Source: Eledone cirrhosa
Taxonomy: Eukaryota
Length of the DNA stretch: 64,000 bases
Assembly (NCBI GenBank): GCA_964016885.1
Contig: OZ024742.1
Location: forward strand, 347,820,001-347,884,000
Reading direction: 5' to 3'
The notes under the pieces are model-generated. The model had not been told where the DNA came from, searched no databases, and saw only the letters and a list, made by a program, of their open reading frames with translations. Each line of letters begins with the position of its first letter. The stretch's first letter is position 1. Position numbers and translations under genes: made by a program. Positions 17,717 to 42,991 of the stretch are shown here, in pieces.

Positions 17717-17884
17717 TTATCTTTTATTTGGTCGACGGCAAACAGAATGTGGAGTAGAATTGTATGTTAACTCCATTTTCTCAAAAGACAGTTGTGTATA
17801 AGTATTTGGAAATGTAAAATGTAAAATGAGATCTTCTGAGTTCTTAAAGTGCTTCTCTATCACATCATTTTGTTCTTTAATTTG
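17717..17884 (-). CDS. ZAP/PARP12-like gene, exon 3 (rest of second WWE domain, stop codon)
   Basis: ctttccttatattttcag acceptor, phase 0. Translates QIKEQNDVIEKHFKNSEDLILHFTFPNTYTQLSFEKMELTYNSTPHSVCRRPNKR*; LSFEKM...VCRRP fits a WWE C-terminus. Confidence 0.75.
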   Translation of the reverse strand, partial: QIKEQNDVIEKHFKNSEDLILHFTFPNTYTQLSFEKMELTYNSTPHSVCRRPNKR

Positions 17885-20355
17885 CTGAAAATATAAGGAA
17901 AGTAAATATCAAAATTAATTATACAATGAAAAGTATTGTGTACAGTGCTCAGGTGCACTACGGCTCGTCAAAGGTGCATGTATAGTACAGAGAATAATGT
18001 ACAAATGTCAGGAAAGTGAACAGTTTATGAGTCATGATATACACACAGATACATGCGTGTGTGTGTGTGTGGAAGGAGAATATCAGGTGTAGTGTTGGTG
18101 AATTTCGGGAAGCATGGAGGTTTTGAAGAATGCAATGTCCTGACAGCTAACAACTGATACAGGTAGTTTGTTCCTTGCTTCAGCAACTCAGAGTGTGAAA
18201 TTGCAGTCTACTCCATTATCTTTTGAAAAGATAATGGCTATTAACATTTAACATTCTGCAGGTTTGTTAGTTCTAATGTTTATAGTATCTTTATAACTGG
18301 ATGACAGATAGTTATGAACTATTGTAGTAAACTAACAGACTTTAATTTTTAATGTGATAGTTATATTGCTGTTTCACATTTTTCAAGAATGTCTTGTTAA
18401 TGTGGTTTCATGTGGTACAGGATGTTAATGATTTAGAACATCAGATAGAATGCTTGACAACATTTGTGCCAGCGCTCTGTACTCTTAATTCAAATTCAGC
18501 AATAGTCAACTTTGTTTTTCACCCTTTTGGGGTGAATAAATATAGTACCAGTAATGAACTGAGGCCGATTCTTTCTCTGTCTCTCTCTCTGGAAGAAATT
18601 GGCTAAGACCTGGAGAAAGACGGCCTCTGCCAAGTTGTGTGTGTATAGTGATGGTAAGAAACTCTCAGGAGAGTTGGACAGCAGAAGGACTTCAAAGAAG
18701 AAACCCACCTCAAGCAAGTATTTTGGCCCTTAGTATATATATATACATATAGGTGGTGAATTAACAAAGTCAAACATCAGATAGAATGTTTTGTGGTATT
18801 TATTTCTGCTCTCTGCTGTCTGAGTACAAAATCCCACTGAGGTCAGCTTTGCCTTTCATCCATTCAAGGTTGATAAAAAAGTACCAGTTTAGTACTGGGG
18901 TCGATTCTTCCTCAATATCTCTTTCTCGTTTCCTCTCTCTCGTCTCTCTCTATCCTTCTCTGGAAGAAATCAGCTGTATTCAGACCTGGAGATGAGCCCT
19001 GCCAGGTTTTTAAATGCCCTAAAAACACTGTATCTCAATACAGCTTCTCTACGACACCCTCAGGAATTACTGGACCACACACATATATATATCCTGACCC
19101 ATCCACATGTACTCCATTCCGAAGCACCACTCATAACTTCTTAGCAGCTGTTCATATCATCAATGTACTTTGCCCTCAATCTGAGATTACCCACCCACTC
19201 CTATTCTCACAGCACCTGTTATACAACCATGCCACTACATGTTACCCCTTCCCCCACCACTCGTCATATAACCATTTCTCACCTCCACTCATGGCACACC
19301 CTTTCATTCCCCCTTACATATGGCATGCTTCCTATTACCCTATCCACACAGTAGAGAGAGCTCTTCAGTCAGGTCAACAACTCTGCAACCTCCGAAGGGG
19401 TTGGCATTAGGATAAAATGCACCCAGTACACACTGTAAAGTTATAAAAGTTAGGAAGCAGAGCTTCCAGCCCTTAGAATTTATACCAAAAAGGGTTGGAA
19501 GGATCTTAGAACTATATTTATACATCCATTGAGTAGCATGGGTAGGATGAGCTGTCCCGTTGTGAGAGATCAGGTCTGAGGACCATGTTTCACACACAAC
19601 TGTTTCTAGCTAGGTTTCTATGGCTGTATGCCCTTCTTAATGCCAACCACATTTAAAGAGTGTGATGGCTGCTTTTTGTCATGACTCCTACACGATCACT
19701 TTACAGTGTGTGCTGGGTGCTTTGTGTCCTGATACCTATATGACCACTTTATAGTGTGGATATATATATCATCATCATCATCATCACCGTTTTAGTCCGT
19801 TCTTCCATGCTAGCATGGGTTAGACGGGTTGTCCTGTTGTGGGCAGTGTCCAGTCAGCTGATCTTGTCTTGCTCATACGGGAACTGATTCTGGCGAGATT
19901 TCTACAGCTGGATGCCCTTCCTACCTAACATATATATATATATATATATATATATAAGTGCACTAGCAGTCGAAATATATGATAGTTTTACATTGGAACT
20001 GAAGGGAACTACTCTTCAATTTTCACTCTTGTTTGAGGACATTGTCCTTCTTCTGTCTTTACTCTCTAACCACAATTAATTATATGTATATGGCAGAGAT
20101 TTTCTATTTCTCTTCTCCCATTTAATCTAACTCTCAATAATCACATAGCTTGATAAGTTTCTATTAATGCCTTTCGCATACCACAGTTTGTACTTTGAAA
20201 CTTCTAGAATGTTTGTTATTAAAGTTATTTCAGTATACATAAAGAGTGTGTAACCGAGTCTACACCAATGTGTATATAATTATATACATATTTAATATGT
20301 AGGCATATAAACATGCCAGAAAATATGAATTTCCCTATAAATTGAAAAATGATAA

Positions 20356-20404
20356 ACACCTTTAATTGATTTTCAGACCCAATTGAGCCCTCATCAGAAG
20401 ATGT
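20356..20404 (-). ncRNA. Minimal type I hammerhead ribozyme motif
   Basis: Minus strand: acatctt CTGATGA gggctc-aatt-gggtct GAAA atcaat TA aaggtgt. 7-bp stem I, 6-bp stem II with GU pairs, short stem III, UUA cleavage triplet. Confidence 0.7.
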
Positions 20405-20778
20405 GTATACCATCCAAACAACCACAAAGAAATATGCATTTGATGAGCTTATATAACCATTTACAAAGTATTATTCTGAAATGGACATACTGATTTACAT
20501 ATAATTACCAACACAAGTGCAATTTAGTATGTCCATTTCAGATTAATATATATGACAGGAAGAGCAACACCTGGATTTGACAGCAGGTGTGAAGGACATA
20601 AGACCATCGGACAAACATAGCTGGCTGACCACGTCTCTTGAGACAACAGGTGGACTATTAGAGTGACTGAGTGGACACCAATGGTAGTGGAGAAGAACCA
20701 GACGGTGACCAAAAGCCAGATGGCATGCCAATCTGACCTGATACCTCAGACCGACAGCAGACCTGCCAACCTTTTACA

Positions 20779-20963
20779 TAATTGTTTCTACTTTTGGCAC
20801 AAGGCCAGCAATTAGTCAGTGTATTACTGGTACTTTATTTTACTGACCCCGTAAGGATGAAAGGCAAAGTTAACCTCGGCGGGATTTGAACTCAGAATGG
20901 CAAAGGCCGTAACTCTATGCGTCAAAGCATGGCGTCCGACCCTCTACTGATACTGCCAATCCA
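20779..20963 (-). mobile_element. tRNA-derived SINE (family with many copies in the window)
   Basis: A-box-like TGGCAGTATC.G, B-box GAGTTCAAATC, core gcctttcatccttacggggtcgataaaataaagtacc (resembles the MetaSINE core as I recall it), tail gtagaaacaattat. Other copies: ~17365-17480(-), 23108-23300(-), 28170-28362(+), 43262-43450(+), 56102-56290(+); diverged ones at ~6608-6750 and ~18750-18905. Confidence 0.85.
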
Positions 20964-41050: not shown

Positions 41051-41082
41051 ACGACGTTTCGGGCATAAGCCCTTCCTCAGGT
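41051..41082 (-). ncRNA. Minimal Penelope-type hammerhead motif
   Basis: Minus strand: ac CTGAGGA a gggc-ttat-gccc GAAA cg TC gt; AATAAA downstream and (TA)n flank. Confidence 0.55.
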
Positions 41083-41271
41083 GAGAAGTGTGTGGGAAGA
41101 GAGTTCAAAGGGTGTGTAGGGGAGTGGTGGAGAGACATATAGCGAAAAGGGGGTGGGAGGAAACGGTGCGAATGAAATTAAAAATAAAAATAAAAATAAA
41201 GCATGATCAAAATAAAATGAAATGAAATAAAAATAAATATAAAAGATATATATATATATATATATATATAT

Positions 41272-41883
41272 GGCATACATGACTTTTAGCGGTCGCAATA
41301 ATGAAAGTAAATTTATTTTCATTTTCGAACGTCGTGTTTACATTTTGTGTGTGTGTTTAAAGGAAATATGCTGGCGACGAAACTTCTTCTTTGCACGGCT
41401 CCATGTGTTCTCTATGAGCTGTGTGTGCACATCAGGGTCCGCAGGATCTACAAAGTTCCGTTCGTGCACCACAACATCATGAACGTAAATCCCACCTTCA
41501 ATTTCCTCAATTTCCGAATAGGAAGCCCAACCATCGGAGATGATGCGGTTGCCTGGCAAAATCCCTGCTGAATGATGGGGACGAGAGTGTCACAGCTTCG
41601 ATTTGGGACTTCTACAAGGCAGCAGCGTCCAGAATGGCGGACTCACCATTCTGCAAGCCTCCTTAGAAGATTACTTCGGTATTGAGTACTCTTCTCTCAA
41701 CCGTCAACTACACACACACACATATATATATATATAATCAGTTAAAACGACAGAGGCTCTGATTTTGTCTTTAATCTCAGTAACTAATTTAGATCTAAAC
41801 ACACACACAAAATGTAAACACGACGTTCGAAAATGAAAATAAATTTACTTTTATTTTTCAGACCGTTAAAAGTCATGTATGCC
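41272..41883 (-). mobile_element. Internally deleted Merlin (IS1595/ISXO2-like) DNA transposon
   Basis: ~88-bp terminal inverted repeats starting GGCATACATGAC and ending GTCATGTATGCC. Internal fragment LVEVPNR..TL.PII..ILPG..IISDGWASY...VHERNFVDP...HTQLIENTWSRAK is the IS1595-type DDE signature. Inserted in (TA)n. Confidence 0.85.
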
Positions 41884-42074
41884 TATATATATATATATAT
41901 ATATATATATATTATTTAATAAAGTTTTAAATTGTTTTTTTTAAAGCATTATTGTATGAAATACGCCCCCTGATCAGAACTGATCAGTGACTAAGTAACA
42001 TTAATATTAAATTGTCATGAGAAGTGGAAGGAAAGAAAATAGAAGAAAAACAACAACAAAAACTGTGTACTAAC

Positions 42075-42991
42075 TTGACTTCTCCGGACAATAAAATGTC
42101 TTTGATATTGGGGTCAGTGTAACTGTTTTCTAATTTTTCGTTTATGCCGTCAGGAAACTTAAACCATTGATCATTATAGTAAAACCAGGCATAATACATT
42201 TTGGAGTGTATAAACTTACACTTGCGACGTGAACATCCCCCATTTAAGAAGAAATAACAAATTTCAGGCGTGTCATATTTATGTTTTAAATATGATACAA
42301 CAGTAGGATGAGTACTCGTGTTTTCGGAGGTTGATTTCACAAGGGCAACAAGTTTTTCATTTAAACCTGTATTACCAAACCCATATTTTAGCAAAACCAT
42401 TTTCACTTGCTCATCATTAACATCGTGGTTTTTATTACAATTTCTGTGACTTTTAGAATCGATATATTTTTTGCAGATATGAAGAGAGTTACATTGCAAA
42501 TGTTTCCTGCAACCACCTTCCATGTTGTAATAAATGCAAACTGAAGGTGTGGTCTCCGTTGAGCGGTTACAATGAAGTAGTAACACACTACGCACTAGTT
42601 CAAAGTTTAATCCATGAAGATCATGTTTCTTTAATATTTTCAGGTTTTGTTCGCTCTCAAAGACGTGGCCGTATATACATTTATGATTGAAGATGCAATC
42701 GTTACTCATTAAAAAGAATTTACAGATGTGCAAAAGAGGGCACTCGTTATCATGAGTTTCTGGATGGCCGCAGAGGCGCAGATCAGTTTTGGGATAAATT
42801 TTATGTTCCTCTTTGTAAAAATAATCAGGGTTTTTGTTAATTGTACGCTCGACATTTTTTGCAAGTTGTCGCTGATTTCTGCCATCGTGAGACATATGAT
42901 CCCTAATAGAAAATACAGTGAGGCCTTTAGATCCTTCTCTGGACAGAAATCTGTAAATAGAAGTCTTAAGATTACTTTTTGCTGTCGCCAT
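42075..42991 (-). CDS. ZAP (ZC3HAV1)/PARP12-like gene, exon 1: N-terminal domain, CCCH-type fingers, start of WWE1
   Basis: ORF 41984-42991 contains LC...C.LLHICKFFL...C...C.YGH, CIYYN..GCR...C.SLHICK.Y...C.KNH, EICYFFL.GGC....CKFIH, YAWFY....WFKF....EKLE.SY.DP. AA|gttagt donor at 42074, phase 2; the ORF beyond the donor is intronic. Confidence 0.85.

What the first reader, a model, noticed from the sequence alone, without database searches (positions are those of the whole stretch)
17717..42991. ZAP/PARP12-like gene apparently hard-wired as a PARP-less 'ZAP-S' architecture
Seen: three minus-strand exons (42991-42075, 22959-22815, 17884-17717) with canonical splice sites and matching phases (2, then 0), joining into ~409 aa of N-terminal domain + CCCH fingers + another CCCH + two WWE domains, ending VCRRPNKR-TAA. 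Exons 2 and 3 are too short for the ORF track. I found no PARP catalytic exon before the convergent ZFR gene. Known: vertebrate ZAP (ZC3HAV1) makes a PARP-less short antiviral isoform by alternative processing, restricts viruses and LINE/SINE retrotransposons, and its ZnF5-WWE module binds poly(ADP-ribose). Inference: this may be an invertebrate gene that independently reached a ZAP-S-like RNA/PAR-sensor design, possibly for antiviral or anti-retroelement defence.
Basis: partly seen in the sequence, partly recalled or inferred. Interest (0 to 1): 0.72.

Follow-up and report, generated by a model that had tools for sequence, protein, structure and literature searches.

The report
Octopus ZAP relative without its enzyme
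Octopuses carry a real, spliced gene related to the human antiviral protein ZAP that stops before the enzyme domain found in most of its relatives, and it likely works as an RNA-binding immune protein that is predicted to have also lost its grip on poly(ADP-ribose); similar shortened forms occur in other animals.

Summary
Observation confirmed. Three minus-strand exons join into a 409-aa winged-helix + 4 CCCH + ZnF5 + WWE1 + WWE2 protein. One 1,659-nt contig of a public run shows both splice junctions and reads 237 nt past the stop. No PARP exon lies in the window or 200 kb downstream, and no second copy was found in the genome. Orthologues in three Octopus species and Argonauta (40-47% identical) end at the same place, so the loss is old and fixed, not a recent lesion.

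(1) The O. bimaculoides orthologue is already annotated, and a 2021 paper that used that species notes PARP-less members in 'a few species'; such forms recur in abalone, mussel, leech and fish. (2) The 'PAR sensor' reading is doubtful: by alignment, the WWE2 positions equivalent to ZAP Y659 and Q668, each needed for PAR binding, are replaced in all octopods. (3) The CpG-contact K107 is also replaced. Best reading: a fast-diverging, enzyme-free, probably PAR-blind RNA-binding descendant of the PARP12/ZAP ancestor, likely in innate immunity; function untested.

The parts
42992..43145 (-). 5' UTR seen in the spliced contig (true start may lie further up)
   Evidence: X1 contig covers up to 43145
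42075..42991 (-). Exon 1 CDS, aa 1-305: winged helix, CCCH fingers 1-4, ZnF5, first half of WWE1
   Evidence: fold of the orthologue
42425..42772 (-). Zinc fingers 1-4 (aa 74-189). Finger 1 has His as likely second ligand in all octopods; finger 4 lacks its second Cys in this species (Ser, with His182 beside it). ZAP CpG contacts: K89 kept (K91), Y98 to F101, K107 to I106, Y108 kept (Y107)
42206..42259 (-). ZnF5 (C245, C253, C258, H262)
22960..42074 (-). Intron 1, 19,115 nt, phase 2, GT-AG, rich in repeats
22815..22959 (-). Exon 2: end of WWE1, start of WWE2 (W342 = ZAP W611 kept; L352 at ZAP Y621)
17885..22814 (-). Intron 2, 4,930 nt, phase 0, GT-AG
17717..17884 (-). Exon 3 CDS: rest of WWE2 (T384 at ZAP Y659, L393 at ZAP Q668, R405 = ZAP R682 kept), TAA four codons after R405
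17480..17716 (-). 3' UTR read through by the spliced contig (its end is not fixed: the contig stops at a repeat). An unused donor-like GTAAG lies at 17646
17421..17426 (-). Only AATAAA/ATTAAA in the 916 nt after the stop; candidate poly(A) signal, inside a high-copy repeat; use not shown

Best explanation
This is the octopod member of the PARP12/ZAP family: it is spliced, ends right after WWE2 and has no PARP domain, and it likely acts as an enzyme-free RNA-binding protein of innate immunity that is predicted not to bind poly(ADP-ribose). Shown: gene structure, splicing, no nearby catalytic exon, the same end in four other octopods, and near-complete zinc ligands. Predicted from a model of the O. 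bimaculoides orthologue: ZAP-like folds of both halves. Inferred mechanism: the winged-helix/CCCH1-4 half binds single-stranded RNA with looser specificity than ZAP's CpG pocket and hands it to host decay or silencing factors. The ZnF5-WWE1-WWE2 half is kept as a structural or protein-binding module. Its ADP-ribose pocket decayed along with the loss of the catalytic domain, before Argonauta and Octopus parted.
For: Spliced contig through the stop. O. bimaculoides 416 aa, O. sinensis 414/425, O. vulgaris 414 and Argonauta hians 414 all stop 3-6 residues after the end of the WWE2 profile. They form one clade with the window's protein, 100/100. 18 of 20 zinc-ligand positions are canonical Cys/His in this protein, plus the shared His in finger 1, despite 40-47% identity to orthologues: the frame and fingers are kept under selection. 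AlphaFold2 model of the orthologue: pLDDT 89.9; Z 17.7, rmsd 2.4 over 158 residues to the ZAP central domain 7kzh; Z 15.6, rmsd 6.8 over 187 to the RNA-bound N-terminal domain 6uej. Pocket: in non-octopod rows of alignment A1, Y659 is Tyr in 32 of 36 and Q668 is Gln in 29 of 36; octopods have T/A and L/V. W611A, Q668A and Q668R abolish PAR binding (PMC8853533), as does Y659A in cell lysates (bioRxiv 2024.08.30.610567). The pocket is intact in 28 of 30 homologues with catalytic H and Y, in 0 of 4 whose catalytic His is Tyr, and in 7 of 14 PARP-less ones (rows are not independent). Immune role by family: in Aplysia, PARP12- and ZC3HAV1L-annotated transcripts sit in an RNA-virus-response module with IRF1 and DDX58 (PMC8195618). 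A PAR-blind ZAP-S mutant restricts alphaviruses better than wild type, so pocket loss does not exclude antiviral action.
Against: No functional or induction data for any octopod copy were found. Human PARP12 gave no detectable RNA crosslinking and no restriction of CpG-rich HIV-1, and CpG-directed activity is placed in the ZAP lineage of tetrapods (PMC8102003), so RNA binding by a pre-ZAP relative is not assured. Net charge of the first 225 residues varies from -1 to +9 among octopods. The pocket call rests on alignment only: W611 and groove residue R682 are kept, and a conserved Tyr (Y383) sits one place before the Y659 column and might reach the pocket. dN/dS could not be measured, and there is no genome-wide baseline for 'fast-diverging'. 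Contigs drop rare isoforms, and splicing was seen in one sample.
Confidence: 0.5

Rival explanations
1. One reading: a convergent ZAP-S that senses both CpG-rich RNA and poly(ADP-ribose) and restricts viruses or retroelements.
For: Same domain order and end point as ZAP-S; folds match both ZAP halves; W611, R682, K89 and Y108 equivalents are kept in this species; mollusc ORFs are CpG-suppressed (PMC8102003), and the window has CpG observed/expected 0.61.
Against: Y659, Q668 and Y621 equivalents are replaced in all octopods, W611 too in Argonauta. The WWE2 loop is 16-18 residues against mostly 20-22 (range 11-25) in others. K107 is I/A/V in all octopods, and Y108 is Phe in O. sinensis, O. vulgaris and Argonauta.
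Confidence: 0.12
2. A non-immune adaptor: it binds cellular mRNAs or proteins (stress granules, mRNA turnover), and its divergence reflects relaxed constraint after loss of catalysis, not an arms race.
For: Ligand pockets are eroded while the fold and zinc ligands are kept; human PARP12 showed no RNA adducts or CpG restriction; the spliced contig comes from a sample with no challenge on record.
Against: Family members in another mollusc are co-expressed with antiviral genes. 25% divergence between O. bimaculoides and O. vulgaris looks high for a housekeeping gene, by recall only; no baseline was measured.
Confidence: 0.25
3. Gene fission: the ancestral PARP12 split, and its catalytic half lives on as the PARP12-type gene at G000:C6:90.48-90.50 Mb and works with this protein in trans.
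For: The C6 exon matches human PARP12 catalytic domain at E 3e-16, against 7e-6 for PARP14. Its catalytic motifs (LFHGT, GSYF, IFVIF) are present, and no finger or WWE exon was found in 270 kb around it.
Against: Its place in a tree of 35 PARP domains is unresolved; PARP7/PARP11-type paralogues were not in the tree; it has its own upstream exon and a 572-aa Q/P-rich insertion; small divergent WWE exons could be missed.
Confidence: 0.08
4. A recent truncation, a decaying pseudogene, or a gene model that misses a distant PARP exon.
For: This species has lost one Cys of finger 4; genome searches score only the best candidates.
Against: Spliced contig reading through the stop; the same end in four other species; open frames at 40-75% identity; no PARP exon in 264 kb.
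Confidence: 0.04

Closest known systems
[quoted passage not shown]
   Same: Orthologues: one clade 100/100, same domains, same end, same pocket changes.
   Different: Only 40-47% identical; finger 4 lacks one Cys in the window's species.
Human/mouse ZAP-S (ZC3HAV1/PARP13.2)
   Same: Winged helix + 4 CCCH + ZnF5 + WWE1 + WWE2 with no PARP; folds match.
   Different: ZAP-S is made by polyadenylation in intron 9 of a gene that also makes ZAP-L (PMC11414379); here no catalytic exon exists nearby. The octopod protein is 409 aa against 699, lacking the long linker. K107, Y621, Y659, Q668 and R577 equivalents are replaced.
PARP12 and invertebrate PARP12-like proteins
   Same: Same N-terminal and central domains; the family from which it descends.
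   Different: No catalytic domain; WWE2 pocket residues that are near-invariant in catalytically intact members (28 of 30) are replaced.
Other PARP-less PARP12-like proteins (Haliotis asinina XP_067658742.1, Potamilus KAK3599141.1, Helobdella XP_009031365.1, Scleropages XP_018602763.2, Stigmatopora XP_077601163.1)
   Same: N-terminal fingers + complete central domain, no PARP; four of these five end 3-6 residues after WWE2, Stigmatopora 38.
   Different: Separate origins; most keep the WWE2 pocket (Scleropages does not); some may be incomplete gene models; I did not check whether they coexist with intact paralogues.
Clade with Babylonia areolata PARP12-like proteins (P0010, P0012, P0022, P0053, P0028)
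   Same: Q668 position is Leu, as in octopods.
   Different: Four of the five keep a PARP domain whose catalytic His is Tyr. Kinship with the octopods is neither shown nor rejected (p-AU 0.45-0.50; an alternative grouping also gave 0.45).

Membership tests
PARP12/ZAP family | N-terminal winged helix with four CCCH fingers | tested here: met
   PF25261 above cut-off; ZAP N-terminal domain E 5e-12; orthologue model Z 15.6 to 6uej. Finger 1 and finger 4 each differ at one ligand.
PARP12/ZAP family | Central ZnF5-WWE1-WWE2 module | tested here: met
   Profile hits on all three exons, E 1e-14, 4e-6, 3e-6; orthologue model Z 17.7, rmsd 2.4, 158 aligned to 7kzh.
PARP12 (enzyme) | C-terminal ART domain with H-Y-I triad | tested here: not met
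   No catalytic exon in the window or 200 kb downstream; spliced contig reads through the stop; orthologues lack PF00644.
ZAP (ZC3HAV1) orthologue | Descent from the lineage that split from PARP12 in the tetrapod/lungfish ancestor | tested here: inconclusive
   No tetrapod ZAP was in my trees. PMC8102003 and PMC12204182 date the split to vertebrates, so an octopod gene is at most co-orthologous to both.
ZAP-S | Short isoform made by alternative polyadenylation of a PARP-bearing gene | tested here: not met
   No PARP exon at the locus; no longer PARP-bearing octopod form at 228-728 aa or 745-2125 aa (its 1 hit carries fingers only). These searches need shared words; 729-744 aa was not covered.
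ZAP-S | CpG-contact residues K89, Y98, K107, Y108 | tested here: not met
   K91 and Y107 kept, Y98 to F, K107 to I; contacts named in PMC8102003. Alignment only.
ZAP-S | WWE2 ADP-ribose pocket W611, Y659, Q668 | tested here: not met
   W342 kept; T384 and L393 at the other two; the same loss in all octopods. Sequence-level test; neighbouring Y383 is a caveat.
ZAP-S | Measured binding of RNA or PAR | not testable with these tools
   Needs CLIP and binding assays.
ZAP-S | Induction by dsRNA or interferon-like signals; restriction of viruses or LINE-1 | not testable with these tools
   Only one unlabelled spliced run was available.
ZAP-S | TRIM25/KHNYN cofactor dependence | not tested
   Cofactor genes were not searched in this genome.

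The most novel reading that the evidence does not exclude
Octopods independently rebuilt PARP12 into a ZAP-like restriction factor that is cut loose from ADP-ribose altogether (no catalytic domain, no PAR pocket) and targets viral or retroelement RNA by a rule other than CpG; the catalytic half may survive as the separate C6 gene with a 572-aa Q/P-rich insertion inside its PARP fold.
Probability: 0.2. Interest if true: 0.7.

Novelty: new variant of a known kind. Interest (0 to 1): 0.38.

Why it matters
[quoted passage not shown] A compact 409-aa natural version without catalytic domain and, by prediction, without PAR pocket, kept across octopods, is a ready test of what the pre-ZAP RNA-binding core does alone. 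The wider pattern (repeated PARP loss or inactivation, often with pocket decay) suggests that ZAP-like uncoupling from ADP-ribosylation evolved several times. The gene itself is already annotated in Octopus, so the surprise is moderate.

Tried and rejected
Word-based homologue search with exon 1: 0 of 232 candidates; the full phmmer search found the relatives (best 150 of 499 listed). No run on record as RNA holds exon 1 ('no RNA holder listed'); X1 was judged by its splicing. The WWE family search of the genome missed this gene's own split WWE exons, so it says nothing on WWE at C6. The sister group of the octopod clade is unresolved: three groupings were not rejected and a fourth test did not finish. 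No squid, cuttlefish or nautilus orthologue was recognised, but I looked up names for only 30 proteins, so the loss cannot be dated beyond 'before Argonauta and Octopus parted'. dN/dS was not possible: no orthologous DNA. No genome-wide divergence baseline was obtained. No complex prediction was run. Earlier scan findings: none by place or by words. Atlas: first hit 0.93 to a 378-aa PF25261+WWE cluster, mostly chordate, a lead only; the C6 exon gave only a 0.86 hit with low recognition, rejected. The ZAP-RNA structure paper PMC6883784 is not held; a guessed id gave an unrelated paper. S1 Fig of PMC8102003, which includes O. bimaculoides, is an image that I could not see, so I do not know whether octopus is among its PARP-less species.
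Full report
1. Observation. The three exons are at the stated coordinates, with GT-AG sites and phases 2 and 0, and give 409 aa + TAA. Exon 1 scores above cut-off for the PARP12-type finger pair (PF25261, 34.8 bits), and each exon carries a weak WWE piece. A profile of the ZnF5-WWE1-WWE2 module built from homologues picks out exactly the three exons in the window (E 1e-14, 4e-6, 3e-6; next best E 3). 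One 1,659-nt contig of run X1 covers 43145-42075, 22959-22815 and 17882-17480 in consecutive record positions. Contigs of the other runs cross the exon borders unspliced (X2-X4 at exon 1; X2 at exons 2 and 3). So the gene is spliced as proposed and is read at least 237 nt past the stop. Limits: X1's library type is not on record, it is one sample, and contigs hide rare isoforms and true ends.

2. No catalytic exon. The PARP family search of the 3.0-Gb genome gave 22 matches, none nearer than about 57 Mb on the same contig (a lower bound). A PARP12-type profile finds nothing in the window (best E 6.1) or in 264 kb made of the window and 200 kb downstream, yet scores other PARP exons of this genome at 2e-10 to 4e-20. 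Three searches found only this locus for the finger region (the last with a stricter filter). A DZF-family gene on the opposite strand lies downstream.

3. Orthologues. The two best of 499 hits among 1.84 billion representatives were O. bimaculoides XP_014771982.1 (416 aa) and Argonauta hians GAB1606187.1 (414 aa). O. sinensis and O. vulgaris proteins of 414-427 aa followed. The main forms end 3-6 residues after the WWE2 profile and carry no PARP domain. With the window's protein they form one clade (100/100, stem 0.92), so the window is inferred to be from an octopod. Identity is 40-47% to the window's protein and 75% between O. bimaculoides and O. vulgaris. No longer PARP-bearing octopod form appeared at 228-728 or 745-2125 aa (word-limited searches). 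The loss is therefore ancestral to these octopods and not a recent lesion. Zinc ligands are kept at 18 of 20 positions; finger 1 has His in place of the second Cys in all octopods, and finger 4 has lost one Cys in this species only.

4. How common is the design? Of 164 fetched proteins, 19 had fingers and a complete central domain without PARP and 39 had all three parts; most of the rest are partial. PARP-less ones include abalone, a freshwater mussel, a leech, a crinoid, arowana and pipefish. In a tree of 52 rows (16 isoforms or near-copies and all rows without both domains left out), the 15 PARP-less rows need 10 changes, at least 5 forced by strong branches, and one origin is rejected (p-AU 8e-8; labels were set by profile before the tree, the test was run after I had seen it). 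Some of these may be incomplete gene models. [quoted passage not shown] Searches for a paper on the octopod gene found only that one or none.

5. The PAR pocket. I mapped human ZAP numbering through the profile alignment to 7kzh (the offset is mine and puts Trp at 611 and Gln at 668 as in the papers). W611A, Q668A and Q668R abolish PAR binding (PMC8853533, passages). W611 is central, the long WWE2 loop forms much of the binding surface, and R577/R682 line a groove (PMC9720839, passages). Y659A loses binding in lysates (bioRxiv 2024.08.30.610567, part 1 of 3). The window's protein keeps W342 and R405 but has L352, T384, L393 and E314 at Y621, Y659, Q668 and R577. The other octopods have Ala at Y659 and Leu/Val at Q668, and Argonauta has Ser at W611. 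Non-octopod rows have Tyr in 32 of 36 and Gln in 29 of 36. The loop is 16-18 residues against mostly 20-22. Across homologues the pocket is intact in 28 of 30 with catalytic His and Tyr, 5 of 5 with partial PARP, 0 of 4 with His changed to Tyr, and 7 of 14 without PARP (related rows count many times). Against this reading: it is alignment only, a conserved Tyr lies one position before the Y659 column, and half of the PARP-less proteins keep the pocket, so PARP loss does not force pocket loss.

6. The RNA side. Of the four CpG contacts named in PMC8102003 (K89, Y98, K107, Y108), the window keeps K and Y108, has Phe at Y98 and Ile at K107; Y108 is Phe in three other octopods. A ZAP-type CpG pocket is therefore unlikely. 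The model of the O. bimaculoides orthologue (pLDDT 89.9, pTM 0.58) matches both ZAP halves (Foldseek E 6e-10 each; Z 17.7 and 15.6).

7. Mechanism. Shown: a spliced, conserved, PARP-less gene, the only copy found. Inferred: a zinc-finger RNA binder with relaxed specificity, and a central module kept for structure or protein contacts and not for PAR. An immune role is inferred from the family: Aplysia PARP12- and ZC3HAV1L-annotated transcripts co-vary with IRF1 and DDX58 (PMC8195618, passages), and a PAR-blind ZAP-S is more, not less, active against alphaviruses. Against: human PARP12 gave no RNA adducts and no CpG restriction, and the antiviral ZAP lineage is dated to vertebrates (PMC12204182, passages).

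8. A side finding. The closest PARP12-type catalytic domain found in this genome lies on contig C6 (E 3e-16 to human PARP12). No finger or WWE exon was found in 270 kb around it, and its last exon holds a 572-aa Q/P-rich in-frame insertion inside the fold. Its tree position is unresolved, so 'lost half' and 'separate PARP7/11/12 paralogue' both stand. Its expression was not checked.

9. Verdict. A real gene and a correct reading of its structure. It is a variant of a known family and already annotated in Octopus; PARP-less forms are noted in print. Not found in print by my searches: that the loss is fixed across octopods and comes with decay of the PAR pocket. It is built like ZAP-S but fails the sequence tests for ZAP-S's two ligand pockets. 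Interest 0.38.

Noticed in passing
G000:C6:90481988-90501525 (-); L068:1988-4108, L013: PARP12-type catalytic gene whose last exon has a 572-aa in-frame Q/P/S-rich insertion (108 Gln) inside the catalytic fold; GT/AG sites fit; no finger or WWE exon found in 270 kb; expression unchecked.
   Followed up: partly
P0010 (Babylonia areolata), P0012, P0022, P0053: A clade of PARP12-like proteins whose catalytic His is Tyr (Y-Y-V, Y-Y-T, Y-H-V), with long PARP branches and Leu at the Q668 position: a likely pseudo-enzyme. By recall, human ZAP-L also has Y-Y-V, so this may be a convergent ZAP-L-like form.
   Followed up: partly
G000:C3:290.34, 290.56 and 290.97 Mb: Three PARP genes of similar exon layout in a cluster, taken as PARP14-like from their layout; identity not tested.
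   Followed up: no
G000:C23:874-889 kb (+) and 1444-1459 kb (-): A WWE + PARP gene present twice in inverted orientation with identical scores for every exon: a recent duplication or an assembly duplicate.
   Followed up: no
window 47641-50067 (-): 808-codon open frame with RT-like and GIY-YIG-like motifs by eye (Penelope-like, recalled); no Pfam hit at 1e-3. A GIY-YIG fragment scores at 45520-45930 (+).
   Followed up: partly
window 57480-60883 (-): Broken LINE with endonuclease (PF03372) and reverse transcriptase (PF00078) pieces in several frames, in a GC-rich stretch.
   Followed up: partly
window 16092-17044 (-): LINE reverse-transcriptase fragment (PF00078) about 0.7 kb after the stop, in the gene's orientation; a similar piece at 11697-12682.
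   Followed up: partly
window about 881-990 and 4458-4522 (+); G000:C3:347808305-347809731: Apparent last exons of the convergent DZF-family gene, read by eye, stop at 4522; DZF_C exons lie 10-12 kb left of the window.
   Followed up: partly
window 42467: One contig of X4 differs here, which would change Lys175 to Asn; depth 7, may be an allele or an error.
   Followed up: no
P0159, P0160, P0156, P0157: Octopus gene models list further short or alternative ends (357 aa, 427 aa) and an 11-aa insertion in the WWE2 loop (425 aa); P0157 is another octopod-like exon 1 read-through. None adds a PARP domain.
   Followed up: no
G000:C28:67464373-67464723 and C13:30466631-30466978: Two DZF_C matches without introns across 118 positions, unlike the split copies: possible retrocopies.
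   Followed up: no
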